Shown: one piece after another, positions 1 to 46,749 of the stretch | Layout of the letters: the number at the start of each line of letters is the position of its first letter | Position numbering within the stretch: position 1 is the stretch's first letter | NCBI GenBank assembly: GCA_002269645.1 | Contig: NIVC01002498.1 | Coordinates: forward strand, 104,244 to 168,243 | DNA length: 64,000 nucleotides | Source: Macrostomum lignano | Taxonomy: Eukaryota | Direction: 5' to 3' | The notes under the pieces: generated by a model | Seen by the model: only the letters and a program-made list of their open reading frames with translations | What the model was told of the DNA's origin: nothing | Database searches by the model: none | Made by a program: the position numbers and the translations under genes

Positions 1-111
1 ACTACAGTTGGCTTAAGCCAAAGTTCTGCATCAACTTAAGAAGCGAGCAGTGTCCGTGGCACAGGGGCAGTGAAGTTGGCAGAAGATTTGGTGAAGAAGT
101 CAAGGATCGAA

Positions 112-695
112 ATGAGTCCACCTGCAGCTACAGCCCTAAGAGTGACCAATCTGGTTGGCGGAGTGGATCTGAGACTGGATGGTGGCAGGGGCGCCCAGTG
201 CCTCTACGGGAACTGGCTCTCAGCATGGCTCATGTGATCTACCGGCCCGTCTGGCCCCGGGTGCTCATCAAGCGGATGCGGAGTCCCAGAGTGACTCTGC
301 TACTCTACCCTACTGGACAACTGAGCATCTGTGGCGCCAAGACCCACGCAGACGCCAAAAGGGCTGCCCGTCGCTTCGTGGCTATGCTGCATCGGAGAGT
401 GCCGGCTCAACTGCTGCCTCCTCAAGACATTTGTGTTCGAATTAAAACTATTGCTGCTCATGGACGTTTTAAGCTCCAAAATGCGCTACCGCTTACTGAA
501 CTTGTTAAAGTTTTGCCCAAAGCCCAGTATGAACCAGAAACATTTTCAGCTTTAGTTTGTCAACTTAAGTATTGTAAATGCTTGCTTTTTCATAATGCTT
601 CTTATATTCTAAGTGGGGCGAAATCTCTGCGTATGCTAAAATCCGACAGTTCTTCCCTGTTTCGCTCTGTTAACACACTTATGCAACTAAAATAA
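112..695 (+). CDS. Divergent TATA-binding protein (TBP)-fold protein in the Polinton-like element; one frameshift near 188-191
   Basis: Frame 1 from ATG112 reads MSPPAATALRVTNLVGGVDLRLDGGRG. Adding one G to the G4 run (188-191) joins it to ORF 198-695. Both TBP repeats are recognisable: repeat 1 TNLVGGVDL..YRPVWPRVLIKRMRSPRVTLLLYPTGQLSICGAKT..AKRAARRF, repeat 2 YEPETFSAL..LLFHNASYILSGAKS. AATAAA overlaps the stop codon. Confidence 0.85.
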
Positions 696-1037
696 AGCAC
701 AAGAATAATCCGTCTTTAATCTTCCGACAAAATCTAACAGTAAAATTTTAATCTGTCTTGTTTACTATTTTTATTTTTTGGTTAGAAAAGATGCTAAAAA
801 ATTGTCAGCAAACTGCAACACAGCGAAAATTGATACTAATATTAAAAGAACATAGGAAAAGAAAGAAAATGAAAATGCTAACACTCATAAAAGTTAAGCA
901 AGTTTTGAAAAAGCAGTTGCACATTAAAGAAAAGTACTATAGCATTTATGCGGACAACATGTACATTGCGTTCCAAAAACCAAAATGCAAAGCTGAGCAA
1001 ATGCTCAATTCAAAAGTACGCACTAGTCAAATGTATG

Positions 1038-4000
1038 TTATTGCATCCTCATTTGCTTGGGAGCCTGATCAGCAGCTAGTTGAGGTGCTTCTCGATTGTA
1101 ACGGCGGCAGCTGTGGCGGCAGGGGTCTCTTAGAGCAAAGTGCCCATACGGAAGACTTTGGTTTGGGGAAGTCCACGCACGCTTGTCCTCCCATACAGTC
1201 AGGGCACGCTTCTGTTGCTCTAAAGTGACTACTCTGTGTCGTCGGCTAGCGATTCTGCGTGTCAAGACGCGAAGCTCCTTCAAACTGGCAAACGCCTGCA
1301 TGTAGTCATCGTGTGTGATTTCTGCCCGCAGCACACTCTTCTGAACACCTTTGGCTGCCTTCTTCCCTCCAGACTCGGCCTTCATCGAGTATAGTTTTGG
1401 TCTCAAAAGGATCCATTCACGATGGGGTTGCCTGCAGATTCGTCCTTTATGCAGCCTAACTTGGCTTTTAGATCATCGGATCGGAATTGATGGTCGGCCG
1501 GGAAGTTTGAGGTATCTAGCAATCGCTGGCGAATGAGTTCTGGTAGAACAGCACTCTGAACATCGATGTTTTTAAAGCACAGAAAGAAGGAATCGGTGTC
1601 CCCACCGCATAGGGAAACTCCTTGTTGGAGAGCAGGATTCTCAAATGTTGGCTTTAGCTTTCCATAGTACAATCGGTACATCGCCAGCTTAGAGTCATCT
1701 AAAACACATTGACCAACGTAGATTGGGCGGTCAAGAGTGACTGAAGTCTTGAAAAATTGAAAAACTACTAAGTCTTGAGTCACAATCGTAAAGTCCTTAA
1801 GATTCGGACGCGATGAATAGATTTCGGACTGCTCCTCGTTGTTAGAAATTCGAACACTGAGCCTCTTCCGTACGTTTTCCATCGTTTTGCCGAACAGGGA
1901 GTTATTCTTCAGTTTGTAATAGTCTTTTTCGAATTCCGTTGTAGCCACTGAGCGCTTTTTGCTGTTTCTGTCAATGTAGGCTTGGAAAATTGCAGCTTGA
2001 CAAAATCGAATAGCTCTTCGGACCTTTTTTAGTCGCATACCGTGACGCAAGTAGAACTTCAAAATTCGGAAATGCACGCGCACGACGTAGGATTCCTTGT
2101 CATGACATGTGAGTAAAAGTTTCACACAGCCTTTGTACGGCTCGTTGCGAGTGTTCAATTCGCCCCAAAGACGTTTCATGAATGGCGGAAACTCTTCGAG
2201 CTTAGGCGCGGCCTTCTCGGGGGCAAATGGCAAATCTTGTGTCTGCGTGTGGATTACATCTGGATATTCCAAATCAACCTCAAATAGGTAGCCAACTGGA
2301 CCATCGTCATCCAATTTAAGTAGCTTCTCTTCTGTCCATTCACACAGTTCTTCTTCACTAAGCCACTCAAAGTCACTGACGGGTCGTTTTTCGGACAGCG
2401 CTTGCCCGTAGAGATTATTCATGTCTACGGGGAGCAAAGAATTTGTCTCGGCATTAGAAGCTGCGCTTGATGAATCTGCACCATCTGACGACTGGTGACT
2501 GGTCCGGCAGTAACATGATGAACGTTCGTGAAGGTCATTCCTCCACGAATGCCAAGCTCAAAGAGTCTGTACTTCTCAGCATCGTCGAGCAACTGGAGCG
2601 GTGTTGGCGCGGATTTCAGCGCGGAATCAAATGATAGACCTGGTGTAGTAAAGTAGTGGGCTGGGTCAAGACCGTCATCATGGAGACTCAAACGGCGAAA
2701 GTTCTGAAAAACATCGGCAAGTTGACGGATGTCAAGCTGCAGGTAGGCAAGCATGTAGTCGTGCAAATTTTTTGCTTCGATCTGCTTCCAGGCTTTGCGC
2801 GCATGAGCATAGCTCTCCTCACTGCAAGCTGTCTTTGTCAGAGAGTTGAAAAACTCTTCTCTGCTCGGAAGTTCGGTCACTGCCAAATTCGCGGGGATTT
2901 GACGAAATCATAGGGAAAGACTCCCTTGATAGACAAAGTTTCATTAGTTAACTTTGGAAAGCAGCTTTTCATTTGCTGAGTGAATTTTCTGTCCTGGAGA
3001 GGTAAGTTGCGAATCAGTTTGTCTAGACCGCGTTTAAAAACTGGAATGAATCGAGGAACTGCAGAGTGAAGAAAATTGTTTTCTTTTTGCCTTTCGGTAG
3101 AGTGATTTCGGCGATTGGGAAATCTACTCGAAGAGACATATAGCGTTCAGAAGTCTGAGGAATGACACTCAGCTTCCAGTTTTTCATATTTCCTAACGCT
3201 GTTGAAAACAGGAGGTGCATGTCATAATTTCGGAGATTATGGAAGAAAATCGGCAGAAATCTTCGGCGAAGTTGCGCTAATTTGTTACACCGTGAACATG
3301 CGGCGCCTTTGAATTTTCCAGTCAGATGATCATGGTCATAGTGCTTGTCATTAGTGTCAGTAAACTGTCGATCACAGTAATGACAGTTGGAGGATTCACT
3401 GAAGATTTGACTAGCAATAGTGTCTGCTTCAGCCGTTTGGTAGCTGTGCCTTCTGTTCCATTCATAGACTTCTCGAGCCACGCGTTCCAGCTCATGAAGA
3501 AACGTTTCCATACACTCCAATGGATTCGAACTGGAGACCAACTTCACCTGACCTTGATCCTTGAGTGGTGGTCCCTTCATGCCTTCACGAGCAACGAGTA
3601 GAAATCCACCCGCTGCAGGCAGATGCTCGGTAATAAAGACGGTTTTGCCAGTTACCATGCCCTCATCTGGTCTTGCTTGTACATGACTGCTGCTGCTGCT
3701 GCTGCTGCGTGTGCTGCAGACTTGCTCATTGTCGCTGACCTCCATTTCCTCAACCTTCTGATGCATGACCTCTCGAGTGTGGGGGCCTAGCGGAGAATTA
3801 AATGCTTCAATATCAGCATAGATGGCGAACGGTGCTTCAATAGTTTTGAAGTAGTTTTGAAAAGACAGCACGCTGCGCTTCTCAGTAGGAACTCGTTCCT
3901 TGACAGCAAACTCATTAGAGCGATAGCACTGCTCTCTGTGCTCACTTAGCTTCTGATCAGTTACGAAAGAGCTCAAGCAGCGTTCACACCACTTTCTGTG

Positions 4001-4869
4001 GTAAAGACCGCTTTTACTGTTTAGTAGCCTATCAAGGCTCACAATTCCGCACCAGTGTTTATCCTCTTCATCCTTGTTAGCTGATTTGTTCAATAGTAGG
4101 AGAAGAACTACTTTGCGACTGCATGCGACTTCAACTCGTGGCTGCCTCAGCACACTGACACCGTTACTGCTTGACCAAGAAAAAACTACAAAACATAACC
4201 TTGGGTTCAGTAATTCGATTCGATTTAGCTGGTTGAGTCCAACGGGTAAGGAAATTCCTGAAAGATTGATATCGTTCAACCAGTCCTTGTAAGTAGAAAA
4301 CCTTTGAGGGTTTTTCCTCAAATTCTCATCACCGTGATGCAGCACTGCAAGGCAGGCATACAAAAAACAATCAGAGCCAGTACTAGGAGGATTGATGACG
4401 GCTTTTTTTGCCTTCAGCAGAGGAGGTAATTCAAAATTGCTTGCGTGACCAGAGTAGAAGCGCAGTCTTTGACCAACCGCAATATTCAAGTCGATGCAGT
4501 TGACGCGCACAATCACCCAACCACTGCCATTTGTGTTCATCTTCTCAATGATGCCTTCGCAACCATCAATCTGCTGCTTCCACCAATCATCAAAGCAAGC
4601 GGCGTCATTGACAGGTTGCAAACGAGTGCTTACCCATCTTTCTTCCTGGTTCACCACTTCACCAGCTTGGATTCTGTTCATTCGGATGCTCATTTTTAGC
4701 TGCGCTCTAACTAAAAGATTTGGATTCACCATCTTCTCGAATACAATTCGCTGTATTGCTTCCCTGCTCCGTCGGGCGAGTTCAAATGGGTCACATGGTG
4801 CATCGCTTGGCACGGAAATTCGATACACCACCAGGGTTTCGTTGTGCGCACTTGCTACTTGCTGAATGT
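1038..4869 (-). CDS. Protein-primed family B DNA polymerase (Polinton/Maverick/adintovirus type), main exon, broken by several frameshifts
   Basis: Collinear ORFs 3023-4831, 2425-2886, 1403-2437, 1038-1406. Motifs: C2H2-like CERC..HREQC; ExoI FAIYADIEA; endonuclease VII-like CHYC..DHDHLTGKFKGAACSRCN; ExoII FHNLRNYD; KGVFPYDF in the gap frame (~2910-3020); Pol-A DMNNLYG; Pol-B KLKNNSLFGK; Pol-C GDTDSF; C-terminal KRALTVWEDKR..SLPYGHF. Confidence 0.93.
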
Positions 4870-5050
4870 CTAAAAAAAAATTAACAGCTTTGCTTATTTT
4901 CTGTTACTCAAAGGATGGTATTCCATGGTAATGAAATTTAGACTCAATAAGCACACTTAAATTGAATTTCTCGATTTTTAAATACAAAACTTCGAATGCA
5001 CCCAGGAATTAAATAACTTAAGGCTGAAATTAAAAATGTTGTTGACTCAC

Positions 5051-6023
5051 GATAAGGATTAATATTGCTGGCACCGTTGTTTTCGATCAAGCTGAGTTCC
5101 CTTCCTGCACTACCGCCGCCAGTGTCGCTTCCTGCACTACCACCACCGGTATCGCTTCCTGCACTGCCGCCGCCGGTGTCGCTTCCTGCACTGCCGCCGC
5201 CGGTGTCGCTTCCTGCACTGCCGCCGCCGGTATCGCTTCCTGCACTGCCGCCGCCGGTGTCGCTTCCTGCACTGCCACCGCCGGTGTCGCTTCCTGCACT
5301 GCCGCCGCCGGTGTCGCTTCCTGCACTGCCGCCGCCGGTGTCGCTTCCTGCACTGCCGCCGCCGGTGTCGCTTCCTGCACTGCCGCCGCCGGTATCGCTT
5401 CCTGCACTGCCGCCGCCGGTGTCGCTTCCTGAACTGCCACCGCCGGTATCGCTTCCTGCACTGCCACCGCCGGTATCGCTTCCTGCACTACCACCACCGG
5501 TATCGCTTCCTGCACTGCCGCCGCCGGTGTCGCTTCCTGCACTGCCGCCGCCGGTATCGCTTCCTGCACTGCCACCGCCGGTGTCGCTTCCTGCACTGCC
5601 ACCACCGGTGTCGCTTCCTGCACTGCCGCCGCCGGTATCGCTTCCTGCACTGCCACCACCGGTGTCGCTTCCTGCACTGCCGCCGCCGGTGTCGCTTCCT
5701 GCACTGCCGCCGCCGGTGTCGCTTCCTGCACTGCCGCCGCCGGTGTCGCTTCCTGCACTGCCACCGCCGGTGTCGCTTCCTGCACTGCCGCCGCCGGTGT
5801 CGCTTCCTGCACTACCACCGCCGGTGTCGATCAGACTGGAACCGCTACTAGCACAATCTTGCTTAGTGTTGTTGGTGTCGTTTCAGAGAGCCTATCGAAA
5901 TCACTCTCCGAGTAGTCTGCCCCGGAACTTGATTCAGACCAATTATCTTCGCTCTCTGATTCTGACCAGCAGTCACAATCGGACTCTGAAAACTCGCTTG
6001 AGTCCTGCTCTGCTCTCTGTCCC
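5051..6023 (-). CDS. Upstream exon of the PolB gene: acidic Ser-rich segment + (DTGGGSAGS)x27, spliced through intron 5050-4870
   Basis: The minus frame runs ..GGGSAGRELSLIENNGASNINPY-c|GTGAGT (donor 5050). The acceptor is T9AG|ac at 4870. Phase 1+2 gives CAC and continues in frame (HIQQVASAHNETLVVYRIS) into ORF 3023-4831. One extra A near 5882 joins the acidic ORF 5831-6028. Candidate upstream acceptor tttcactgtgcag| near 6023. Confidence 0.65.
5098..5826. repeat. 27-bp coding tandem repeat, 27 copies
   Basis: Unit ctgccgccgccggtgtcgcttcctgca; no indels across the array. Confidence 0.95.
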
Positions 6024-6034
6024 TGCACAGTGAA

Positions 6035-6577
6035 AGTGCGGCAGAGTTGAACAACTGTTTTTAGAGCTTATCAACCTCGCCTCCATTTCAAAACCCCACC
6101 CTTTCCACTCAAGCCCCGCACCCGTTACAAAGTTTATTGCCCATTTATTATCAATCCCAGTGCGCCAGAGGCAGACACTCAAGAACAAAGACAAGAACCT
6201 CTCTCTTATCTATTTCACTCCGCACTGACAAATAGTGCGGCAGAGTTGCATAGGCATGCTATAGGATAAGCATAGTGGGGACGCCGAGGAGTTGCAATGG
6301 CCAGGCACAAATTGAGGTGGACGTTTCCACGCTATGCCTACCTTGTTTTTAATTTGTTTACTCTGCTATTCCAAAAACCTTCCAATTCTTTGCTTTGCTA
6401 CCTGCCTCCCCCAGTGCGGCAGAGTTGCATTAAGCGTTTCACCACCCGCGCCGCCCAGCCAATCGCACCCACCCCACGCCCCCTTATTTCCATTGGCTAT
6501 CTCAGCTGGCTCTTTTTACGCCCTCCTATCCTTTTTACATTACCGCCTATCTCCGCAGTGCAAGTGCGGCAGAGTTG
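6035..6577. promoter_or_regulatory. Putative PolB promoter region with four copies of AGTGCGGCAGAGTTG and two opposed CCAAT-like boxes
   Basis: Exact 15-mer at 6035, 6234, 6413 and 6563; agccaatcg (~6457) and ccattggct (~6490). Confidence 0.45.
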
Positions 6578-6844
6578 CATAAACTCATACTACTTATCGC
6601 CATAGACAATTCGGTGGGAAAGTTCCGCGCTTAGTACGAAAGTACGAGATTGTACGATATTGCACCATGACTTACGTGGCTCTGATATTCGATTATTGCC
6701 ATAGACGATTTCATCTTGGCAAGTTCATCCAGGTCTTGGTCAGTCAAAAGCCGTATATGTGGACACTGAGCCAGAAAAGTATCAAAATCACTTCCACCTC
6801 CAGCACTGGCAGTTCCGTGAACTGAGAGCCATCTAATTCTTCCT

Positions 6845-8080
6845 CGGGGGTGCGGGGACGGAGTCTTACCATAGACAAATTCTCATCAACCGGGGGTGCG
6901 GGAACGGAGTCTAACAATAGACAAATTCTCATCAACCGGGGGTGCGGAAACGGAGTCTAACCATAGACAAATTCTCATCAACCGGGGGTGCGGGAACGGA
7001 GTCTAACAATAGACAAATTCTCATCAACCGGGGGTGCGGGAACGGAGTCTAACAATAGACAAATTCTCATCAACCGGGGGTGCGGGAACGGAGTCTAACA
7101 ATAGACAAATTCTCATCAACCGGGGGTGCGGGGACGGAGTCTAACCATAGACAAATTCTCATCAACCGGGGATGCGGGGACGGAGTCTAACCTTAGACAA
7201 ATTCTCATCAACCGGGGATGCGGGGACGGAGTCTAACCATAGACAAATTCTCATCAACCGGGGGTGCGGGGACGGAGTCTAACCTTAGACAAATTCTCAT
7301 CAACCGGGGGTGCGGGGACGGAGTCTAACCATAGACAAATTCTCATCAACCGGGGTGCGGGGACGGAGTCTAACCATAGACAAATTCTCATCAACCGGGG
7401 ATGCGGGGACGGAGTCTAACCTTAGACAAATTCTCATCAACCGGGGATGCGGGGACGGAGTCTAACCATAGACAAATTCTCATCAACCGGGGGTGCGGGG
7501 ACGGAGTCTAACCTTAGACAAATTCTCATCAACCGGGGATACGGGGACGGAGTCTAACCATAGACAAATTCTCATCAACCGGGGGTGCGGGGACGGAGTC
7601 TAACCTTAGACAAATTCTCATCAACCGGGGGTGCGGGGACGGAGTCTAACCATAGACAAATTCTCATCAACCGGGGGTGCGGGGACGGAGTCTAACCATA
7701 GACAAATTCTCATCAACCGGGGGTGCGGGGACGGAGTCTAACCTTAGACAAATTCTCATCAACCGGGGATGCGGGGACGGAGTCTAACCATAGACAAATT
7801 CTCATCAACCGGGGATGCGGGGACGGAGTCTAACCTTAGACAAATTCTCATCAACCGGGGATGCGGGGACGGAGTCTAACCATAGACAAATTCTCATCAA
7901 CCGGGGGTGCGGGGACGGAGTCTAACCATAGACAAATTCTCATCAACCGGGGGTGCGGGGACGGAGTCTAACCATAGACAAATTCTCATCAACCGGGGGT
8001 TCGGGGACGGAGTCTAACCATAGACAAATTCTCATCAACCGGGGGTGCGGGGACGGAGTCTAACCATAGACAAATTTTCA
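6845..8080. repeat. 46-bp tandem array (~27 copies)
   Basis: Unit catagacaaattctcatcaaccgggggtgcggggacggagtctaac; period measured 6871 to 6917. Confidence 0.95.
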
Positions 8081-8585
8081 TCGATAATAGACAAAAATCG
8101 ATCTGTTTTTGCTCTTTTCGTTGCTATAGATCCTAATTTTACTATATTTTCTTTGCGTGCGTTACGAGTCGTAAATCGTAAATACGTTTCTCTGTTTACT
8201 AATAAAGTCTATGGTTAAATTTAGCGGGCAAAAATTTCCGGGCACAATGCGGTTAGAAATAGCCTATCTCCGTCAGCTATTTTTGCGGGCAAATAAAGCC
8301 AATAGACACACTATCGGGCATGCCTAAAGGCTCGCTGAATTAAAAAGCCTACTAACAATACACTATTGGAGCAGCTGAAGTTTTACCGAAACTTTGCTGG
8401 CTTGCCGGAATTTCGATCAAGACAAGTAAACGTTTTAGTGCAGCTCGACCGAAACACACGCTTGCTTTGTTGGAATTCAGAATTGGGATATGGGAATATG
8501 GGAACTGCAGATTAGCAATATGCGACCCTTCATTAAGTGACATCACTTATTAATGTATACCATACTTTGTTGAAATTTCCTAGAA

Positions 8586-8770
8586 GTGACGTCATTCGCG
8601 AAATCGCAGCCGCAAGCGACGCCATTGGAAATATCCTATAAATGACGTGATTTTCTATATACTCAATGCATGTGTTATAAGTGACGACGCCATTTCAATC
8701 ATTTTGCAAGTGACGTCATTTGCAACTTTCTACGAGTGACGTCATTTGCGATAACCGGAAATGACGTAAT
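8586..8770. promoter_or_regulatory. Cluster of CRE/ATF-like TGACGTCA palindromes
   Basis: Three exact gtgacgtca plus near matches atgacgtga, gtgacgacg and atgacgtaa within ~190 bp. Confidence 0.5.
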
Positions 8771-10947
8771 TAGTAATAGTTTACAGTTGATTATGTTTTT
8801 ATTGGCACTTTCCGATACAAGTGCGTCACTGACTATATTTCACTGCCATACTCAATACAGGTTCAAAATAAAATTTCGAGTGTCCATATGGAAGTCGCCA
8901 AACTTCGCAAGAGCTCGCTGAAAAGTGCAAAGCAGAGGGCTTTGCTTATAGTGAATTCGTTATCGCGGAGGCGAGAGCAAATCAATTCCAAAGGGTTTAT
9001 CAATCAGTACAGCAGTGGTTGAGAGGGAGTTTGCCCTGCTTGACAAACAACTGCCCTGCAGTCTGCAGATGCAGCTTTTGACTATGCAATGCAGCTCAAA
9101 GCATGTTCCCTATAATGATATATATTTTTGTGTTAGCATAACGTAAACCTAATAAGACGCATGTTTCAGGACTTTTGTATAAGCGTTTAGCATTATATAG
9201 ATAAATGGCGCTGGACAGCATCTGACGAGGGCTGGCCAAATTTAATTAGCATTAGTCGGAAGCATTTCAGAAGCGGTAAACCCTCCTGAGAGTTGAGATA
9301 TTCCTTAGAAATTATTTCAAAGGGGTTGAACGGATATACTGTAAGTAGCGCGCCATCTCTACCATGCTCCCATGCACCTGGTGTTCAACGAGCACAAAAT
9401 ACGCTGTCAATACTTCTTAGAAAAAATTGTGTTCAAAGGAGCGCCCTAAGGCTTGGGTGCCAACGTATTAAGTATGTCGCGCGCAGTACGATTCGGCATT
9501 GACGCAATTTGCTTGCCAAGGGGATCAGCTGAAGGTGAATTGAACAAGTGTTCAAGAATCCATTTGTATAGTTTTCACTCGTCATGTACTATCGTATATG
9601 TACTTCTTTCTACCCAAGCAATAAAAAGAAAAGAAGCAAATTAAAGCAATCTAAACAGTTGGGTAGGTGACTGCATGGAGATGCGTAGATGTATTTTAAT
9701 ATTTATAGATCTGTAAATATTCTATCGTTATTCCTTATTTATTTCATACTAAAGGTATCGAGCAGTATCTTTAGATTGTATCCTACCAAAGTAGGTAGAC
9801 ACGGGATAAGTATAAATAAATAAATTTAACACACGTTTAGATTTTTGATTATTTAGAATTCTTAGGCAGTCCAAAGCTTCAGTAGCACTAATTCAGGGAC
9901 TGCTCAATGACTACTCAAGTAACATATAAATATATATAGGACGCTACACTCGAAATCTATGGTAAATGTTTTGAAGGCAACTTTTCGCCGAAAAATGCAT
10001 TACAGAGATAGGGGGTTTTAATTTTTTCAGCACAAAAATTGTTTTTGCTTTTGATAAGAGGCAGATCCAGTGTTCATCTTTTGATATGTTGTGCCTTTCT
10101 TATTGCTCTATCGATATTCATAGAGCTTTCTGTTCAGAAATAGTTTTAAAGGCAGGTTTAACCGGAAAAATACACTACGGAGATGGGAAATTTCACGATT
10201 GTCAACACTAAAACAGTGATTGGGTCTCTTAACAGTGTCAGAGAAAGTTTTAATCACACTATTTTGTGCCTCAGATGCTGCTCTAACGACGCATTAATCG
10301 ATTTTTCATGTTAAATTGGTCTTGTCATTATTTTAAACGTTTTTTCAAGTGACAGACCAATTTAACGTCCAATTCTACATAAGTTGTTCTTGGGACTACT
10401 AAATAAATACTCCTTAGTAGACCCTGAGCTAATATTATGTATTTCTAACTACTTGTGCGAAGAAATATCGATATGGTGCAAATTTGGTAATTTTGGTATG
10501 GTACAAATTGTGCCCCTACATCTGAGTCAAGACCTTACATGCCGCATTTTTCTTTTAATCATTATAACAAAAAGGTTTAAATAGCTAGAAGTTAAAGTTT
10601 ATATTTCAGGCTTGTAACAAAATTTGGGCACAGAAAGTTTACTAACATTAAGGACAAAAATGTTTTTCTTTAAGAAGCCCTCGCGCTAATGACATCATTC
10701 ATTTCGTCCATTCAGACACATGGACTTTCGTTGGTATTTCCAAGCTTTCATTTTTGCAAACTTTGGCGTGCAATTCTTAAGAATATTTCTTTGGTTCGAA
10801 GCTTCGTCATGGCTGTCAAACCATTTCACTGTGGTGCTTTAAAAAGGCTTCTTAACTATCTAACAAGAGATTTGTCTACCGTTAGAGCTTTTGATACTGT
10901 AAAAGCTAGTAATAACAATTATGACTATTCAAGTTCAGGATTCTGTC

Positions 10948-11325
10948 ATGAATATTTTAAAGAGCATGATTGAGTCTGACCAGCAATTTGTTAGCACAGA
11001 ACTGCCCATGTTTACTACCGAATCCGAACCAACATCAACAACGGTACTGCCCCGATTTGGGCCTAACGCCACGTCGACATCAGCTATCTTCTTGGTGACA
11101 TCGGAATTCAACACTGCGAGCGACATCGCTTTTGCTGTTTCAGCTGCTCTAATCGTCCTGGTGATTGTAGCAGCGGTTCTAATCCTATTTTGGCGTCGCA
11201 GTACTCAACGGACGAACTCTGCTGAGAGGACAAATCGTGCTCCTTCCAATCTGATTGTCCGTCAGAATCCCAACAGCCCAGACTGCACTGAAGCAGAGGA
11301 CTGCCAGCTTGAAAGTTTTGTGTGA
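10948..11325 (+). CDS. Orphan single-pass membrane protein (Thr/Ser-rich stalk, TM helix, short tail); possibly the last exon of a longer gene
   Basis: STELPMFTTESEPTSTT stalk; TM IAFAVSAALIVLVIVAAVLILFW followed by RR; long AT-rich 3'UTR-like sequence downstream. Confidence 0.6.
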   Translation: MNILKSMIESDQQFVSTELPMFTTESEPTSTTVLPRFGPNATSTSAIFLVTSEFNTASDIAFAVSAALIVLVIVAAVLILFWRRSTQRTNSAERTNRAPSNLIVRQNPNSPDCTEAEDCQLESFV

Positions 11326-12428
11326 CAACTCAGCAATGATTTTGCATTTACTATTGCTGACTTAGTTTCATGTTGCCATATTCTATCTAGATAAGCTATA
11401 GGCATGGTTATTTTATATACTAGCATGTGGTACACCTATGTCTTTGCTTACATTTTTATCAACTGCTTTTGTCTTCTACTCACCCTTTTGATCAAAGAAA
11501 TTCATTTTTATTAATCAAATACAGATTTAACTATGCACTGGGGTAGTGGATTATATAAGGCCTCTCATATTTCAATTTCAAGGCCTTAGTTTAGGTTTCA
11601 GCAATGTCATTATATTCAGATTTTTTTAATCATTGTTATTCAGATAGGTGTTATTATATTTTTATTTATTTTCTGTATGATTATAATTCAATTTATCTTT
11701 TTATCCAATGCTGTAGTGCAGGCGCTACATATTTGAGTTTTTTTGTTTTGTGGCAATCTTTTTTAAAGTAACATTGTTTTACATTTTTCCTAATTCAATT
11801 AATAATTCTATTATAAATTATAATTTATAGGGTTCAAAAAATGTGTATGCAAATTCTACTGATGCTCTGTATGTTTTAGTTGTTGTTTTATCTGCTATTT
11901 AAAGTTGATTAAACAATTAACATCTGTATTATCCTGATTATTTGCTTTTAAATAAACATGAATGTTTGATTGTTATTATTAACTATTAAGCATTGGTATT
12001 CAAGCCCATGATTTTCTGATGCTGTGTTTGAAATTTTTATGCACAGATACTTAAAAGTTTTTGTTTGTTTCATTTTATTTAAACTGACCTGGCAAATCAT
12101 TGTTGAATGAGTTTTAAGCTGAATTTCTCAAAAACAACTTACCAGATTGCTTAAGCTTATCATTTTTATTTTTCTATATCTGAAAACCATAAGACTACTG
12201 GCTATTCACATACAGTAGTATAACTGTGCTCATTAAAAACTTTTGTTGTTTTAATCTATACAGCGTTAGGCTATTCACGTGAAGTGTATCTTCTCCTGTT
12301 TAATACTCATGATGGCATTTAAACATCATTTATTTTCATTCTGGGTTTGTATAGGAATTTTTCTTTTTGCATGGGCAGGTGCTGGTGTACATGGAAATCT
12401 CTCTCTTTGGGCAAGCGCCGCCATGTTG

Positions 12429-13320
12429 TGTACATAGAATCTCTCTCATTGGACAGGCGTTGATGTACATAGAATCTCTCTCATTGGACAGGCGTTGATG
12501 TACATAGAATCTCTCTCATTGGACAGGCGTTGATGTACATAGAATCTCTCTCATTGGACAGGCGTTGATGTACATAGAATCTCTCTCATTGGACAGGCGT
12601 TGATGTACATAGAATCTCTCTCATTGGACAGGCGTTGATGTACATTGAAATCTCTCTCTTAGGACAGGCGTTGATGTACATTGAAATCTCTCTCTTAGGA
12701 CAGGCGTTGATGTACATTGAAATCTCTCTCTTAGGACAGGCGTTGATGTACATTGAAATCTCTCTCTTAGGACAGGCGTTGTGTACATACAAATCACTCT
12801 CATTGGACAGGCGTTGATGTACATTGAAATCTCTCTCTTAGGGCAGGCGTTGTGTACATACAAATCACTCTCATTGGACAGGCGTTGATGTGCATAGAAA
12901 TCTCTCTCTTAGGACAGGCGTTGATGTACATAGAATCTCTCTCATTGGACAGGCGTTGATGTACATTGAAATCTCTCTCTTAGGACAGGCGTTGATGTAC
13001 ATTGAAATCTCTCTCTTAGGACAGGCGTTGTGTACATACAAATCACTCTCATTGGACAGGCGTTGATGTACATTGAAATCTCTCTCTTAGGGCAGGCGTT
13101 GTGTACATACAAATCACTCTCATTGGACAGGCGTTGATGTACATTGAAATCTCTCTCTTAGGGCAGGCGTTGTGTACATACAAATCACTCTCATTGGACA
13201 GGCGTTGATGTACATTGAAATCTCTCTCTTAGGGCAGGCGTTGTGTACATACAAATCACTCTCATTGGACAGGCGTTGATGTACATTGAAATCTCTCTCT
13301 TAAGGCAGGCGTTGTGTACA
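12429..13320. repeat. ~35-37-bp minisatellite with interleaved variants
   Basis: Unit tgtacatagaatctctctcattggacaggcgttga. Confidence 0.95.
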
Positions 13321-13671
13321 TGTACTTCAGTATATCTCTTTGTCGTATTGTGTGACTTCGTAATTGTGCACAGTATAATCAATTGTTCTTATTGACTTGA
13401 CTGACAATTTCTTCATTTGAGCAGTGTGAGCCGTCTTCTTGCACCTGAATGGCATTCAGAATAAAAAAGAATCTCGCTGTGCTGCATCTGCAGGCGCCCT
13501 TCTGAGTTATCCATATAATAGATTATTCTCATTCATACAGATTCCCCTCTCTAGATCCCTAAGGATGTCATTCCGTTTGCATTAGCTGCTGGTGTCAGGG
13601 ACACAAGTTACTTTTGTGAGGCTCGTAAATGGATCGACGATTTGAATCGACGATAGCCTCCAGCCTAGTGA

Positions 13672-13975
13672 AGGGGATGAAAGGACAATAAAGGGGATGG
13701 GAGGATAATGAAGGGGACGGGAGGACAATGAAGGGGATGGGAGGATAATGAAGGGGACGGGAGGACAATGAAGGGGATGGGAGGACAATAAAGCGGATGG
13801 GAGGACAATGAAAGGGATGGGAGGACAATAAAGCGGATGGGAGGACAATGAAGGGGATGGGAGGACAATGAAGGGGATGGGAGGACAATGAAGGGGATGG
13901 GAGGACAATGAAGCGGATGGGAGGACAATGAAGAGGATGGGAGGACAATGAAGAGGATGGGAGGACAATGAAGAT
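13672..13975. repeat. 20-bp purine-rich minisatellite
   Basis: Unit gaggacaatgaaggggatgg. Confidence 0.9.
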
Positions 13976-14315
13976 TCTCAGAAAAAGGAACGTTTGAGAA
14001 GATAATGAACGAAATACGAGGTCAAACTACGGGGCTGGGGGGTCAGAGTCGGGTTGTATGGAAACACGTGAAATGAGCACTTTCTGGTGAGTGAGGGAGA
14101 GGCGAGATAAAAAAACTGAAAATCAGGAATCTTACATAAAAATGAAATTGAATTGCTCATACTAATTGAAGCGGAGAGGGCAGAGGCCGTAAAGTGGCGG
14201 AGAGACAGACAGGTAATTGGAGTGAAGAAGGCGGCCCAGCTGCTCTGTGATTGGCGGAGCACCTGAGCAATGGCTGAGTAGCTCTCTGAGCAGTCAGTTT
14301 AATTACTTAAGCTGC

Positions 14316-28824: not shown

Positions 28825-29987
28825 CTATCGATATTCACCAGCGCTCAGAGTGGGTACCGCCGGGGCCAATCTGTCGTAAGTCTCGCTGTACACTGTTGAG
28901 CCGTCGGCATACGTGGGCGACTGTGCAGCACCAACCTCATCGTAGATCACCTGATCGGCAACTGGTCCAGCTGGTCCTCCTGGTTGGCTCTGCAATGCAC
29001 AAATTAGATACACGAAATGACAAAAATATCATAAACTGTTTCACATAAGTAAAGGAAGTATTCGACATTGGCTTGTATGGGACTCTCTACACTGAGCTAC
29101 GAACTAAAATCGAAGCTTCTCTTTTCTGTCTGCACGTTTGGCTTTTCTGCTTCAAAATGATAAAATAGCAAACGAGCCAAGGCGTCACATTCAGTCGAGT
29201 AGAGAGCAGTACGCATTACGTCTGTAGCAACTACCTAAGAACTATAGGCTGAATTCAGACGGCTCTTTGCGCATACTTTAAAAAAAATCATTTAACTTTA
29301 TCACTGATTATCATTGATTACCATATAGCACAAATTACCAACCTGACTCGCCATTGAACCCTCCCTGTGAGGCACGTGAGGCACATTGTTCTGGAAATTG
29401 TCCACGCCACTGGTGTTAGCGTCCGGAGGAAGTAGTGAAGCTCTCTGACTAGCTCTTCCGGTCTCAACATCGCTAGCTGGTCCTTGGAGATTTCTGCGCC
29501 GATGGCGATACACAAAGACAACGATGAGCACCAATGAAACAGCCAACACAACAGCCAATGAAGCGGCCAGCACAATGATAATTGTTTTATTCGATGGCTG
29601 CACTGGCGAATCTGTAGCCGTTTGGTCGGGTCCTCCCGGCGACTCTCCGGGTGACGCCTTGCTGGTTGCCAACGGAGGCGGTGGGATTACCGACCCGACG
29701 GGATCGAGCACGAGCTGGTGTTGCTTTGATCCGCCATGTTGTTCACCGGTGCAGCACACTGGGTGATCCCGGCAGATCGCCGAGTAATGCTCGGTGGCCT
29801 GATAGTTGTCCTGGTCGGGCGGCTGCGGGCAGGCAACGCAACGGTCCTGGATCGCATCGTAGAACTGCTTGAGACCAGGCGGACAGGCGGCTGTTTGAGC
29901 ATCAACTGATGCGGTCTGCAGAGGCGCCGCGATGGCAAGCAGAATGCTGATGATGATGATGATGATGCCGTTTAGTCTGAGAGACAT
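28825..29987 (-). CDS. Type I membrane receptor with one small Cys-rich (TNFR-like) ectodomain and a Tyr-rich tail; 2 exons
   Basis: ATG29987; signal peptide LNGIIIIIISILLAIAAPLQTA; CPPGLKQFYDAIQDRCVAC..C..CC; Pro/Ser/Thr stalk; TM IIIVLAASLAVVLAVSLVLIVVFVY + RHRRR. Exon 1 29987-29343 (cag|gttggt); exon 2 28989-28825 (ttgcag|agc), phase 0. Confidence 0.75.
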
Positions 29988-30751
29988 ATTTGAGCAAGAA
30001 TGCAAGCGAGATTTTCTGGTTTTCGCATATATGCGAAGGTGTGTCTTTTCTATTTATGTGACTATATACGAGCAAGAGCTTTTACGACGTAATTACATTC
30101 GTACTATTTTTATCTGCTTAATGATGTCAAACTATCTTTTTTACGTTTGAGTACACTTTTGTACGGAGCTGCCCGTTGTTAATGCAGGGTAAACGCTCGT
30201 ATGTGCTTTCATTGACGTCATTAATACTGTACAGATTGACGAAATGGAAAAAACTAAGTTTTTTAAAGAGAATGCTCACAGCAGATTACCATATTAAGAG
30301 CTATGTGCTGCCGCCGATTCAAACCGGTTGCATTTTAGCAGAAATGTGAGTCTAAAGATTACGCAGACGCAAATATCTTAAAACGCGCATTTCAAAGATA
30401 CGTCTGAGATACTTAAAATAGAAATTACGTACAGTATGTTTTAATGTGAATCCAGTGCTAAACTGTAAAGCCTAATTTACAATTTTCAACGGGAAATCAC
30501 ACTTTTTTAGCATTAGCACTTAAATATTAAATTTCATATAAGCAAAATGGACTGCAAGCCTTCCCATAGCTTCTAGAACAGCATTGCTAAATTCAAGCTA
30601 ATCGCGGTCCTATCAGTCACAGGGTCAAGCTCGTAACGTACCAGGATTTTTATCGGGGACATGGGGGTTGCATCGCCATCGCGGGGCGACAGCGAATGGC
30701 ATCATTGTAGAGGAGCTATTGTGAGGCGCCAAGCTGCGCAAGCACTAAGAA

Positions 30752-38884: not shown

Positions 38885-41800
38885 ATGCCGATTTTATCCG
38901 CAGTGGCCGCCCTGCTGCCGCCGACTGCAGCTGAGCAAAGCTCGCAAGCCATGAATGTCGGCAGTCAGCAGCAGCCGCCTCTGAAGCCGGCGAAATGCGA
39001 TCGAGTTGCTGCTTTTGCCCAGAGTCTGCAACAACCGCAACAGAATCAGAAGCAGCAGAGACAGCAGCTTGCGGCGGCCGGTTCAAGCAGCGGGCGAAGC
39101 GTCAGCCGGCAGTGCAGCCGCTGGCGCAGCGAGGAGAACCTCTGTCTGGTCCGCGACAGGCGCGCCCGCCTGTTCGCCCGGCGACCCCGGCCCGCTGCCG
39201 CCAATGATGGGGTGGCGAACTCTGCTGGCGTTGCCGCGCCCGCCGCCCCAGCAGCCTCCGCGGCTGTCCCTGCGCTGCATCATCCCAGGGGCCGATCCGC
39301 GGCTACTGCTGCCTGCGTGTCCAAGCTTGAGTGCACTGGCGACGGAGGCGGGGACGCCGTCTACGAGTCCATGATCTCTGCCACCGATGTGAGCTGGCCT
39401 TGGAACTCTTTTTACATCCGGTGTTTCCATGATCAGCCCCCAGACTGGCCCCATCAGCCCCCAGACTGGCACATCAGCCCCCAGACTGGCCGCATCAGCT
39501 CCCAGACTGGCCCCATCAGCCCCCAGACTGGCCGCATCACCCCCAGACTGGCCGCATCACCCCCCAGACTGGCACATCAGCCCCCACACTGGCCCCATCA
39601 GCCCCCAGACTGGCACATCAGCCCCCAGACTGGCCCCATCACCACCCAGACTGGCACATCAGCCCCCAGACTGGCCCCATCACCACCCAGACTGGCACAT
39701 CAGCCCCCAGACTGGCCCCATCACCACCCAGACTGGCCCCATCACCCCCCAGACTGGCCCCATCAGCCCCCAGACTGGCACATCAGCCCCCAGACTGGCC
39801 CCATCACCCCCCAGACTGGCCCCATCACCCCCAGACTGGCACATCAGCCCCCAGACTGGCCCCATCAGCCCCCAGACTGGCCCCATCACCCCCAGACTGG
39901 CCCCATCAGCCCCCAGACTGGCACATCAGCCCCCAGACTGGCCCCATCACCCCCCAGACTGGCCCCATCAGCCCCCAGACTGGCCCCATCAGCCCCCAGA
40001 CTGGCCCCATCAGCCCCAGACTGGCCCCATCAGCCCCCAGACTGGCCCCATCAGCCCCCAGACTGGCCCCATCAGCCCCCAGACTGGCCCCATCAGCCCC
40101 CAGACTGGCCCCATCACCCCCCCAGACTGGCCCCATCACCCCCAGACTGGCCCCTCAGCCCCCAATTCCTCCGCGAACCCTCAGTGCCGGCCGGCCGAGA
40201 ATGTATACGATGTCGCGGGCTTCGAGCACCGGCGCACGGCCTCCATCCAGGACCTGACCAGCGGTGGCAGCGTCGGGATTGTCTCGGCGGTTTCCGAAGG
40301 CGGCGGCGAGTACGCCACGGTGATGATCGAGCATCCCGGAGCCGCGGCCGGCAGCTCCACCACAGTTGATCGACGAAATCCGCAGCCAGCGGCCGGCGAT
40401 CAGCAACAATGGCGTCGCAACGTCCTTGGCTGCGTCTCCGACGCTTTCTCCGGCTTTCGCCGACTGTCGGCCACAGCTGCAGGCGCCTACGCCGGCGCCT
40501 CGGACTCCGAGGATGACGACGACGAGCGGTCGGCGGGCTCCGGAAGCCTGGGCAGTCTGGGCGGCTCCGAGCTGTCCGATCGAGTCCGCCGGGCCGAGCT
40601 CACCCGGCTGAGGAGCGCCGCCGCCCTGCACTCCGGGCTGCTGGCCCAGCGCTGTCGGCACGACCAGCTGTTCTCCGGCTGCTGCCTCATCCGCCTGCGG
40701 CTGTCGCTGAACTCGACGTCCGAGGCGCAGCCGACGCCCAGCCTGTCGTTCTGCCATCCGGCGAATTTCTCCGACCAGCCCTATTCGGCTTCTCTGCCGA
40801 GCTTCTGCTTTCCCGACGCCGAGTGCCTGGCAACCAGGCGGCAACGGCCGGGCGGAATCCACCAGCTGCGCGGCTACCTGGAGGCCTGCGACCGGTTCAG
40901 CTTCGTCATCACCGAGCAGCGGGGCCTTCGCTTCTACGGCTACTGCATGCGCTGTCTGGCGCCCGATCCGGCCGCCTCCAACTCCGCCCCCGCCGCCGCC
41001 GGCACCCTCGTCGAAGCCGTGTGCATCGTCTCGCCAGTGGAATCCGAGCAGCTGTTCCACCAGATCCTGCTGGAGGCGCTGAGGAAGCGGCTTGGAGCGG
41101 CCACGCCGGAGCAGGGCCGACAGGAGCTCGAGGATTTTCTGGGTTGGTTCTTTTGTGATGTCCGTGTCAGAGAGGCCAGTTATGGAATTATCGTTTTTCA
41201 ATAATTGAATACCGGTTTCTACGAGTCAAACGATGATTTCTAAGAATTAAAGAGCGATTTTAAAGAAACGAACAGCGATTTCTAAGAATTTATGGGTGCT
41301 TTCGAAGATCGGGGGTCGGGATGATTTCTTAAAATCGAAATTTGATTTCCCAGAAACAAACGGCGAATTCTAAGAAACGAAAGTGATTTCTAAGAATCGA
41401 TGATGATGATTTCTAAGAATCGAAAGTTGATTTCCCAAAAACGAATAGCGACTTCTAAGAATCAAAAGTTAATTTCCTAGAATTGAACGGAGATTTCTTA
41501 GAAACGAATGGCGATTTCTAAGAATCGATGGTGATTTCTAAGAATCGAGGGTGATTTCTAAGAATCGATGATAATTTCTAAGAATTGATGATGATTTCTA
41601 AGAATCGATGATGCTTTCTAAGAATTGATGATTTCTAAGAATCGATTATGCTTTCTAAGAATCGATGATGATTTCTAAGAATTGATGATGATTTCTAGGA
41701 ATCGATGATGCTTTCTAAGAATCGAGGGTGATTTCTAAGAATCGATGATGATTTCTAAGAATCGATGATGCTTTCTAAGAATCGATGATGATTTCTAAGA

Positions 41801-43768
41801 ATCGATGGTGATTTCTAGTGTTTAAATAAAGACACCTAAGAATCAAAAGGCTGCTTATAAAAACCTAAAATTTTCTAGATCTGTGTAGTCAGCAATGCTT
41901 TTAGTATTGTTGGACCAGATTGTCCACATTGCTCTTTCCTCGCCAGTCTCGGTGTACAGCCGGCCTCTGCCAGACGCTGGCGGCTGGTTCGACCTGGTGA
42001 CCACGGACCCCGGCCGCAGCGGCCAGGTCGTCAGTCGACGGTTCAGCCGGCCGGCCGGAGCCCGCCTGCAGCACGTGTCCCACTCGCAGCTGCTGACTTT
42101 CCCCGGCGCCCGGCTGGCGCTGCAGCTGTTCTCCGCCGCGCTGCACGAGCGCCAGATCGCGCTGGTCAGCGCCAACCCGCGCCGCCTCAGCCAGTGCGTG
42201 CAGGCCCTGGCCGGCCTGCTGTACCCGCTCCGGTGGCAGCACACCCTGGTGCCCGTCGTGCCCGCCGATATGTTGCGAATTGTCTGTTCGCCAACGCCTT
42301 TCATTTTGGGCGTCCTGGCAGAGCACCTGCCCCAGGTGGGCCTCATTTACACTGGTCTCTTGGTGTCGGAGATCTCAAGGGCTTACTTACGAGTAGATCA
42401 GCCCAGAAATTTTCTGAGAATCTCACGGGAGATTTTCTTAGAATAGAATCTCAGAGAGTCTTAGAATATAATTTCGTAGATTTTCTTAGAATCTCCTCTC
42501 GGAGAGTTTCTTAGAATCTCATCCTGAAGAGTTTCTTAGAATCTTATCTCGGAGAGTTTCTTAGAATCTCATCCTGAAGAGTTTCTTAGAATCTTATCTC
42601 GGAGAGTTTCTTAGAATCTTATCTCGGAGAGTTTCTTAGAATCTCATCTTGAAGAGTTTCTTAGAATCTCCTCTCGGAGAGTTTCTTAGAATCTCATCTC
42701 GGAGAGTTTCTTAGAATCTCATCTCAAATAGTTTCTTAGAGTCTCCTCTCGTATAGTTTCTTAGAATATCATCTCGAATAGTTTCTTAGAATCTCCTCTC
42801 GTATAGTTTCTTAGAATCTCATCTTGGAGAGTTTCTTAGAATCTCCTCTCGTGTAGTTTCTTAGAATCTCATCTCGAATAGTTTCTTAGAATCTCCTCTC
42901 GGATAGTTTCCTAGAATCTCATCTCGGAGAGTTTCTTAGAATCTCGCCCCCGGAAAACTTCTCGGTATCTCACCCGAAGATTTTCAAAGAATATTTCACC
43001 CGCAGGTTTTCCTTGTATGTCAAATTCTCGACATTTACTGATCCCCGACTCTCCGCGGCCCTGCAGGTGCTTCAAGACGACCTGGACCCGGACGTGTTCA
43101 TCGTCAGCCTTGACGACGCGCGCATCGTCCGACAGCGCGGTGACGAGTCGCGCCTCTTGCCGCGCAAGCTGCGCCGCGCCTGCCTGGCCAGCCTGGCCGC
43201 CTCCCGCCGCCTCGAGGCCACCCGGCGCGCCGCTGAGCTCCTGGTTGTCCGCACCTTCCTCCAGCTGTTCGTCGTGGCCGTCGGGCACTACGCCGATCAC
43301 GTGACCATCGGCCGGACCGACGGGAGGCGCCGCTTTGACCGAGAGTCGTTCTGCTCGGCGCCGCGCTCGCGTGGCCTCCGCGCCCTCCTGCGCGTCCTGG
43401 CCGTCACTGGCAATTTCCACGTGTTCATCAGCGACGTCCTGGACGGCAGCGCCTACGCGGCCAGCAAGCTGACGGTGAGCACCGTGCTGCGCGACTTCGA
43501 CCAGGCTGTGCGCGACTTCCGCGCCGACGCTCAGCGCCGAGGCGGCGCCGGCGCCAGCGGACTTTTGAGCAGCCTCAGGCGTCAGGTCCGCCGCCTGCTG
43601 TCTGGCGAAGACGATCGTCGGGGTCGTCGACGGAGCCGCGGTCGGAGCCGCACAGCCGCAGGCTACTCGGCTGCGTCCGCGACAGCGCCGCTGAGCAGCT
43701 CCTACCCGGCCAGGCCGAGCGGCTCGCTGCGCTCCTGGGGCCAGCCAGCGCTGCCGCCGCGGCGCTGA
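38885..43768 (+). CDS. DENN-domain Rab GEF, DENND2/ST5-like; 4 exons
   Basis: Exons 38885-39388, 40185-41142, 41947-42335, 43067-43768 (GT-AG; phases 0, 1, 0). uDENN: LPSFCFPDAE..FSFVITEQRGLRFYGYC. cDENN: LHERQIALVS..LSQCVQALAGLLYPLRWQHTLVPVVP..CSPTPFILGV. dDENN: FLQLF..VGHY..FDRESF..FHVFI. Confidence 0.88.
39431..40160. repeat. Intronic 21-bp C-rich minisatellite
   Basis: Unit atcagcccccagactggcccc; it creates the false long ORFs 38876-40369 and 39429-41204. Confidence 0.93.
41380..41820. repeat. Intronic ~20-bp minisatellite (ttctaagaa core)
   Basis: Unit gatgatttctaagaatcgat. Confidence 0.85.
42475..42950. repeat. Intronic ~25-bp minisatellite (ttcttagaa core)
   Basis: Unit gagtttcttagaatctcatctcgga. 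Confidence 0.9.
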
Positions 43769-46440: not shown

Positions 46441-46476
46441 TTGGTTCGCCTATTACATGTAAACTGTACGAATGAA

Positions 46477-46749
46477 TAGAATGGATTGCTAAACTAGCCA
46501 ACATGATAAAGGAATAGAATGGATTGCTAATCTAGCCAACATGAATAAAGGAATAGAATGGATTGCTAAACTAGCCAACATGAATAAAGGAATAGAATGG
46601 ATTGCTAATCTAGCCAACATGAATAAAGGAATAGAATGGATTGCTAAACTAGCCAACATGATAAAGGAATAGAATGGATTGCTAATCTAGCCAACATGAT
46701 AAAGGAATAGAATGGATTGCTAATCTAGCCAACATGAATAAAGGAATAC
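46477..46749. repeat. 37-39-bp minisatellite, left of the transposon
   Basis: Unit gaatagaatggattgctaatctagccaacatgataaag. Confidence 0.9.

What the first reader, a model, noticed from the sequence alone, without database searches (positions are those of the whole stretch)
4870..6023. Viral-type PolB appears spliced to an acidic + (DTGGGSAGS)x27 N-terminal exon
Seen: a perfect GTGAGT donor at 5050 and a T9AG acceptor at 4870 fuse in phase and give uninterrupted sequence into the PolB ORF. This picks out a reading frame the ORF track misses. Inference: a ~243-aa flexible Gly/Ser tether and an acidic head sit in front of the terminal-protein/polymerase region, an odd design for a pPolB. The spliceosomal intron implies nuclear, host-spliced expression.
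Basis: partly seen in the sequence, partly recalled or inferred. Interest (0 to 1): 0.75.

Follow-up and report, generated by a model that had tools for sequence, protein, structure and literature searches.

The report
Spliced Polinton polymerase with Gly-Ser tether
A virus-like Polinton DNA polymerase gene in a likely flatworm genome has a 181-base intron, found spliced out in one probable RNA dataset, that joins a 243-residue glycine/serine repeat in frame to the predicted DNA-priming domain; this is unusual because such genes were reported intron-free in vertebrates, but this copy is broken and the acidic stretch upstream lies in another reading frame.

Summary
The intron is real. GTGAGT at 5050 and T9AG ending 4870 bound a 181-nt phase-1 intron. 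A contig from one probable RNA run skips exactly it, while the DNA run keeps it. The splice is needed: the first in-frame Met below the acceptor is residue 47, inside a predicted terminal-protein (TP) domain that begins at the acceptor. TP is followed by vOTU, EndoVII and PolB. The 27 x DTGGGSAGS array is in phase with the donor, and 27 of its 29 variant letters are silent.

One claim fails: the acidic stretch (6022-5885) is in a different frame from the array and ends at TGA 5833. The acidic + GS exon is therefore not continuous here. The copy has four more frame breaks in PolB, so a fifth is the likeliest reading; alternative splicing is the rival. An upstream intron (6675-6023) is predicted only.

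Extensions before TP are common in this family (79 of 165 homologs have 50 aa or more; some acidic or repetitive). A Gly/Ser tether was in none of 177 proteins checked. Database labels give Macrostomum lignano. Verdict: new variant of a Polinton/adintovirus pPolB; integrase, capsid and termini untested.

The parts
4870..5050 (-). GT-AG spliceosomal intron, 181 nt, phase 1
   Evidence: Motifs and phase; skipped exactly in one contig of RNA-guess run X14, retained in DNA-guess run X3
5051..5099 (-). 3' end of the tether exon, 16 non-repeat codons
   Evidence: Translation; 49 letters of the X14 spliced contig lie here
5100..5828 (-). 27 x 27-nt array encoding (DTGGGSAGS)27, 243 aa, 67% Gly+Ser, no hydrophobic residues
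   Evidence: 27 of 29 variant letters silent in this frame; loose ends of X3 and X11 contigs run on into repeat units
5829..5882 (-). Polar 18-codon lead-in to the array in the GS frame; the frame switch from the acidic stretch lies near 5885
   Evidence: position of the switch inferred from the change in composition
5885..6022 (-). Acidic Ser-rich stretch, 46 aa, 33% Asp+Glu, in a different frame from the array; that frame stops at 5833
   Evidence: no homolog found
6023..6675 (-). Predicted upstream intron, 653 nt, phase 0 (GTAAGT donor at 6675, CAG acceptor at 6023); holds four copies of a 21-nt motif
6676..6872 (-). Predicted first coding exon with short acidic-hydrophobic motifs; candidate ATGs at 6872 (other frame), 6728 and 6714; probably one more frame switch near 6815
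   Evidence: inference from sequence only
6845..8082 (-). 27 x 46-nt array that repeats the candidate start region; 16 of 28 scored positions carry ATG
8587..8767 (.). Cluster of three TGACGTCA and two TGACGT sites with TATA-like boxes; candidate promoter or terminal region
   Evidence: function not tested
4463..4869 (-). Predicted terminal-protein (TP, D1) domain; its first strand begins at the acceptor; candidate linking Ser at 4525-4523 in GSGW
   Evidence: AlphaFold model, mean pLDDT 85; best match is the little-finger domain of Pol eta, Z 8.9, rmsd 2.9, 108 aligned; Ser and Trp invariant in 20 of 20 aligned sequences
4037..4432 (-). Predicted vOTU protease domain, catalytic Cys (4369) and His (4057) retained
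   Evidence: OTUD1 match Z 7.2, rmsd 3.4, 108 aligned; Cys invariant, His in 90% or more
3278..3400 (-). Endonuclease VII (HNH-type) insertion in the exonuclease domain
   Evidence: Pfam PF02945, E 4e-8
1047..4036 (-). Remainder of pPolB (Zn finger, exonuclease, polymerase motifs), broken into five frames with breaks near 3027, 2900, 2450-2500 and 1425
   Evidence: tblastn with P0001 and P0002, 44-60% identity per piece; P0001 carries PF03175
112..695 (+). Convergent TBP-like gene, frame break near 198; likely part of the element
   Evidence: Pfam PF00352, E 5e-20; homolog models P0178-P0182

Best explanation
This is a broken endogenous copy of a Polinton-type protein-primed DNA polymerase gene whose message is spliced at a 181-nt intron, which likely supplies the start codon and puts a predicted disordered Gly/Ser tether, probably preceded in intact copies by an acidic head, in front of the predicted terminal-protein domain. 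Shown: the intron, its phase, the spliced contig, the array frame and the lack of an ATG before TP residue 47. Predicted: the TP-vOTU folds. Inferred: two introns (6675-6023 and 5050-4870) give a message reading first exon, acidic head, tether, TP, vOTU, exonuclease/EndoVII, polymerase; the acidic/GS frame mismatch is one more break of this copy. Inferred from 10.1101/2024.03.18.585575: vOTU would cut between TP and vOTU, so head and tether would stay on the TP that is covalently bound to the genome's 5' ends. The slot in front of TP holds zinc fingers, basic or acidic tracts in relatives, so it is most likely a swappable accessory module. Here it would act as a protein-contact (activation-domain-like or chromatin-docking) head held at a distance from the priming site, not as part of catalysis.
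For: Joint 4869|5051 with GT-AG ends and no microhomology in X14; intron kept in DNA-guess run X3. Phase match. First Met is residue 47, after two strands and helix 1 of the TP fold, and this stretch is conserved in relatives. Repeat variants are silent at 5 of 6 distinct sites, P 0.006-0.018; all C>T, none G>A at the same CpGs. Composition turns hydrophobic in the acidic frame after 5885 while the GS frame stays polar. The copy has four other breaks, and run contigs differ in length from the window at those places. A sister family in the same species has an acidic and Pro-repeat extension in gene models P0016 and P0162; P0090 has an acidic repeat extension in a single ORF. The three closest other relatives (P0001, P0002, P0177) are called with 29, 0 and 0 residues before TP, as expected if they are spliced too.
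Against: The acidic and GS frames do not join in the window, and no second copy could be read there. The chance of a break in that 190 nt at this copy's break density is only 18%. The joint rests on one contig of one run whose RNA status is a guess; X11 shows only the unspliced form. The spliced contig has 17 gap letters inside TP, matching the 17-nt offset behind gene models P0013, P0174 and P0175, so the spliced message seen may come from a frameshifted copy. The upstream intron has no read support. The silent-variant bias fits the antisense frame equally well (28 of 29), though that ORF has no ATG. Sister gene models disagree with each other about splicing and are not evidence of expression. 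Short calls in relatives could reflect contig ends. Nothing tests the function of head or tether.
Confidence: 0.6

Rival explanations
1. Two products from alternative acceptors, as in adenovirus E2B. The upstream exon spliced to 6023 gives a short separate acidic protein ending at TGA 5833; spliced to a lower acceptor it gives tether-PolB without the acidic stretch. The frame mismatch would then be by design.
For: The frames differ as the window stands. A phase-0 AG in the GS frame ends at 5862 (read). PMC8502044 places small 'Oncoid' genes upstream of PolB (passage). PMC11304566 describes shared 5' exons spliced to different terminal exons for pTP and Pol (passages).
Against: The 5862 AG has no pyrimidine tract. 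The first 60 GT-AG pairs listed that could change frame inside the exon show no consensus-like donor (later rows not printed). No LxCxE motif is visible in the acidic stretch. The copy is demonstrably break-prone.
Confidence: 0.2
2. The array is a host-type minisatellite that grew in a dying copy. The working ancestor had a short spacer, and today's spliced transcripts are non-productive leftovers.
For: The window has 67 tandem-repeat rows. The copy is broken in four places. The spliced contig carries 17 gap letters. Array homogenisation can spread a few events, so the silent-variant test rests on only 6 sites.
Against: Silent bias P 0.006-0.018; period is a multiple of three; no stop in 243 codons. 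Contigs of X3 and X11 also run into the repeat. Repeat-built extensions occur in single-ORF relatives (P0090).
Confidence: 0.15
3. The joined form is a DNA deletion or retrocopy in one sample, not a splice.
For: X14 is RNA only by guess; the table of the joined form in other runs was not given.
Against: The ends are exactly GT and AG with no microhomology, phase is kept, and the DNA-guess run X3 shows no such joint.
Confidence: 0.05

Closest known systems
Polinton/Maverick (adintovirus) pPolB with TP-vOTU N-terminus (10.1101/2024.03.18.585575; PMC8502044)
   Same: Predicted TP domain with little-finger-like fold and a Ser next to Gly between helix 2 and the last strand; vOTU with Cys and His; exonuclease and polymerase motifs. 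Best viral structure matches: Drosophila-associated adintovirus 2 (E 1e-17) and a MELD virus PolB (E 2e-10).
   Different: Spliceosomal intron at the TP boundary; 243-aa Gly/Ser tether; TBP-like neighbour. PMC8097293 saw no introns in 134 intact vertebrate Mavericks (passage).
HNH-bearing pPolB2 of nematode Polintons (PMC10748475) and divergent Beta PolB (PMC8502044)
   Same: HNH-type (EndoVII) insertion in pPolB; only weak PF03175 similarity (E 2e-17 for P0001).
   Different: No tree with reference sequences was built, so the class is not assigned; the passages read mention no spliced N-terminal exon.
Adenovirus E2B transcription unit (pTP and Pol; PMC11304566)
   Same: Related replication module expressed through host splicing, pTP coding sequence assembled from two exons.
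   Different: Adenovirus TP and Pol are separate proteins and vOTU is inactive; here TP is fused, vOTU residues are intact, and the upstream exon adds about 280 residues or more.
Homologs with acidic or repeat N-terminal extensions (P0090, P0117, P0126, P0075; sister-family models P0016, P0162)
   Same: Low-complexity, often acidic extension directly ahead of TP.
   Different: None has a Gly/Ser repeat; the highest Gly+Ser in any 40-aa window of the first 500 aa of 177 proteins was 0.55, a Ser run.

Membership tests
Polinton-type protein-primed PolB | N-terminal PRD1-like TP domain with linking Ser/Tyr | tested here: met
   Model topology; Y-family little-finger matches Z 8.9-7.0; Ser invariant in 20 of 20. 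Prediction only; priming not assayed.
Polinton-type protein-primed PolB | vOTU domain with catalytic Cys and His | tested here: met
   OTU matches Z 7.2-5.0 over residues 147-278; C168 invariant, H272 in 90% or more
Polinton-type protein-primed PolB | Exonuclease and PolA/B/C motifs | tested here: met
   Motifs visible across the five frames; 44-60% identity to full-length P0001 and P0002; P0001 hits PF03175
Polinton-type protein-primed PolB | TPR1 and TPR2 palm insertions | not tested
   The palm was not modelled
Polinton/Maverick or adintovirus element | RVE integrase, packaging ATPase, adenain protease, major and minor capsid genes | tested here: inconclusive
   None among 10 + 15 window ORFs scanned with Pfam, but the element appears to run off the left edge and no genome is held
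Polinton/Maverick or adintovirus element | [quoted passage not shown] | not testable with these tools
   Left end outside the window; no long inverted repeat within 1-14000
Polinton/Maverick or adintovirus element | Multicopy, mobile family | tested here: inconclusive
   Three near-identical gene models on different contigs and variant contigs show several copies; mobility not shown
Vertebrate-type intact Maverick | Intronless core ORFs (PMC8097293) | tested here: not met
   GT-AG intron spliced in X14
pPolB2 / Beta adintovirus PolB class | Clade membership and HNH insertion | tested here: inconclusive
   EndoVII present; no phylogeny with reference sequences
U2-type spliceosomal intron | GT donor, pyrimidine tract, AG acceptor, exact removal in RNA | tested here: met
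   one contig of one RNA-guess run

The most novel reading that the evidence does not exclude
A lineage of flatworm Polintons has become intron-dependent and uses its terminal protein as a genome-anchored regulator. After vOTU cleavage an acidic activation-like head stays fixed to each genome end on a Gly/Ser leash of up to about 87 nm (about 260 bp of DNA), reaches the CRE-rich promoter and works with the element's own TBP-like protein, coupling replication priming to transcription.
Probability: 0.1. Interest if true: 0.8.

Novelty: new variant of a known kind. Interest (0 to 1): 0.5.

Why it matters
Core Maverick genes were reported intronless in vertebrates, and element searches filter on long single ORFs (for example 900 aa or more in PMC10748475). 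Spliced polymerases would be mis-started or missed, as the three database models of this family are (all begin inside TP). A spliced pPolB shows that the element is transcribed and processed in the host nucleus, and parallels adenovirus E2B splicing. It also points at an unstudied variable slot in front of the terminal protein. The host is probably a laboratory flatworm (recalled, not from a call), so expression of the element is testable.

Tried and rejected
- No whole genome is held, so other copies could not be read as DNA.
- Related-locus scans found nothing: viral contigs with the window ORF, no pattern match; alignment A2, 0 of 210 pattern matches confirmed in metagenome contigs and 0 of 29 in viral contigs. 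Alignment A1 was too diverse to search with.
- The acidic stretch found no protein among 57 candidates (weak evidence).
- tblastn of 10 homologs against 4801-8800 gave only low-complexity matches, mostly Pro-rich antisense ones; rejected as compositional.
- No listed holder run is on record as RNA; this is no evidence either way.
- Run X18 does not cover the donor.
- Reads were laid on 1-5127 only, so the array, the acidic stretch and the upstream intron have no read test.
- The TPAAAVQEA frame, which is collinear with the acidic frame, was rejected: 28 of 29 variants change the residue, it has stops at 5833 and 5089, and it is out of phase with the acceptor.
- The antisense (LPALPPPVS)n ORF 5056-6033 was rejected: no ATG, and the splice signals are on the minus strand.
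- Foldseek against PDB gave no match at E <= 0.001; its weak hits were Y-family polymerases.
- Earlier scan findings: none by place, words or sequence.
- Literature: nine searches and term look-ups in ten papers showed no report of a spliceosomal intron in a Polinton pPolB. Macrostomum + Polinton gave 1 unrelated paper. Subscription papers, Repbase and all supplements were not seen, so prior description is not excluded.

Full report
Observation. On the minus strand GTGAGT starts at 5050 and T9AG ends at 4870, giving a 181-nt intron of 29% GC with a branch-like motif 15 nt before the AG. The donor is phase 1 in the frame of ORF 4944-5882, which carries the DTGGGSAGS array, and the acceptor is phase 1 in the PolB ORF 3023-4903. 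It is the only T>=8-AG in the window on either strand; GTGAGT alone is common (10 minus, 41 plus). The array is 27 x 27 nt.

Splicing evidence. Of 24 runs listed, 4 were laid on 1-5127. RNA-guess run X14 has a contig that joins 4869 to 5051, skipping 181 nt with ends CT..AC (GT..AG on the minus strand), depth 8.8, 49 letters on the short side and no microhomology. RNA-guess run X11 shows only an unspliced contig over 4757-5099, and X18 does not cover the donor. DNA-guess run X3 has contigs over both intron ends and no joint. So 1 of 3 RNA-guess runs and 0 of 1 DNA-guess run show the joint. All are contigs, so strand and level are unknown. An independent argument: below the acceptor the first in-frame Met is residue 47, after two strands and the first helix of the predicted domain, and that stretch is conserved in relatives. 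The gene therefore needs an upstream exon.

What fails. The acidic stretch (6022-5885, 33% D+E) lies in ORF 5831-6067 and stops at 5833. The GS frame is closed by six stops between 5975 and 5885. The acidic + GS exon is not one frame in this copy. After 5885 the acidic frame turns hydrophobic (41%) while the GS frame stays polar, which places a likely frame switch there. The PolB itself is split over five frames, and contigs of the runs differ in length from the window at those places, so this is a damaged copy or a damaged assembly. At that density a break in the 190-nt stretch has an 18% chance: plausible, not compelling.

Is the array coding? 27 of 29 variant letters are silent in the GS frame, against 1 of 29 and 0 of 29 in the other sense frames. 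Counting distinct sites, without the boundary unit, 5 of 6 are silent, P 0.006 to 0.018. CpG decay alone would also give G>A changes; none is seen. The antisense frame that shares third positions fits equally well but has no ATG.

Upstream. A GTAAGT donor at 6675 is phase 0 in ORF 6631-6882 and matches the phase-0 CAG at 6023. This predicts a 653-nt intron and a first coding exon with ATG candidates at 6872, 6728 and 6714. Above it lie a 46-nt array that repeats the 6872 start region and a cluster of TGACGTCA sites at 8587-8767. None of this has read support.

The protein. A model of 335 residues below the acceptor (mean pLDDT 85) has two domains. Residues 9-136 match Y-family little-finger domains (best Z 8.9, rmsd 2.9, 108 aligned) and 147-278 match OTU proteases (Z 7.2, rmsd 3.4, 108 aligned) (Z in this range is moderate by the tool's own note). 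This is the TP + vOTU layout described in 10.1101/2024.03.18.585575 (passages and section 4 part 1 of 3 read). The invariant Ser of GSGW sits where that paper places the linking residue, and the vOTU Cys and His are kept. The exon boundary coincides with the first strand of TP. EndoVII follows. Best viral structure matches are adintovirus and MELD virus PolBs. A 99%-identical protein is labelled Macrostomum lignano. Three database models of this family begin inside TP through a 17-nt offset, and the X14 spliced contig has 17 gap letters in that region. The spliced message seen may thus come from a frameshifted copy (inference; the row for that gap was not shown).

How unusual is the extension? 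Among 177 proteins fetched, 165 hit a TP profile. Of these 79 have 50 aa or more ahead of TP, 40 have 100 or more, 32 carry C2H2-like fingers, and 6 are at least 20% acidic over 50 aa or more (starts are rough, and 14 of the 79 are models of one sister family). P0090 has an acidic repeat extension in one ORF; sister-family models P0016 and P0162 have acidic plus Pro-repeat extensions. None has a Gly/Ser repeat.

Mechanism. Shown: intron, phase, one spliced contig, no usable ATG below the acceptor. Predicted: TP and vOTU folds. Inferred: intact copies translate first exon, acidic head, tether, TP, vOTU and polymerase. vOTU would release the TP-bearing N-terminal part, which would stay on the genome ends with its head on a leash of up to about 87 nm. 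Because relatives put zinc fingers, basic or acidic tracts in this slot, I read it as an accessory docking or activation module (0.6 for the whole chain; about 0.9 for the splice alone). Rivals: two products by alternative acceptors (0.2), a minisatellite in a dead copy (0.15), a DNA deletion (0.05).

Comparison with what is known. It works like a Polinton/adintovirus pPolB and meets the protein-level tests. Element-level membership (integrase, capsid, TIR, TSD) could not be tested, because the element appears to run off the window and no genome is held. PMC8097293 reports no introns in 134 intact vertebrate Mavericks (passages). Adenovirus pTP and Pol are spliced (PMC11304566, passages). Also read as passages only: PMC8502044, PMC10748475, PMC12220804 (group I introns only), PMC11296320, 10.64898/2026.10.13.758929 (68), 10.64898/2026.07.28.741278 (74), PMC12721341. 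Nine searches showed no spliceosomal intron in a Polinton pPolB; supplements, Repbase and subscription papers were not seen.

Verdict. A real, spliced variant of a known polymerase family with an unusual tether, in a broken copy; the acidic-head link is unproven. New variant of a known kind, interest 0.5.

Noticed in passing
window 112-695 (+): TBP-like gene (PF00352, E 5e-20) convergent with PolB. Five homologs found, two labelled M. lignano; many variant contigs in the runs suggest a large element-borne family.
   Followed up: partly
window 3-110 (+): Tail of a gene upstream of the TBP-like one. The matching part of model P0178 resembles unnamed RNase T-like folds, one cluster 46% viral (Preplasmiviricota) (a lead only). 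It suggests the element continues left of the window.
   Followed up: partly
window 6845-8082: 27 x 46-nt array that repeats the candidate start region; units carry ATG (16), AAG (7) or ATT (5), and an ATG unit reads as a 10-codon upstream ORF. Could affect translation or hold splice sites.
   Followed up: partly
window 6035-6583: Four dispersed copies of a 21-nt motif at 150-199 nt spacing inside the predicted upstream intron (family D9).
   Followed up: no
window 8587-8767: Three perfect TGACGTCA (CRE/ATF-type) palindromes, two half sites and TATA-like boxes in a CpG-rich stretch.
   Followed up: no
window 10674-11325 (+): Intronless-looking type I membrane protein pieces (Thr/Ser-rich stalk, one transmembrane segment) with a long AT-rich 3' region; host or element cargo unknown.
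   Followed up: no
window 29301-30053 (-): 250-aa ORF with signal-peptide-like start, Cys-rich ectodomain and one transmembrane segment; no Pfam hit above cut-off.
   Followed up: no
window 47119-48355 (-): Two overlapping ORFs that look like a transposase-derived gene (recalled resemblance; no Pfam hit).
   Followed up: no
window 39393-43768 (+) and 54934-55726 (+): Host genes: DENN-domain protein with a 21-nt in-frame array, and an Arf-family (Sar1-like) GTPase.
   Followed up: partly
window 46474-52905: The same 39-nt minisatellite occurs in three separate arrays (46474, 48655, 51424).
   Followed up: no
P0014/P0016/P0162 (sister family): Gene models of a second M. lignano PolB family diverge from one another at the residue just before the TP start, the same place as this intron; may mark a shared splice site.
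   Followed up: partly
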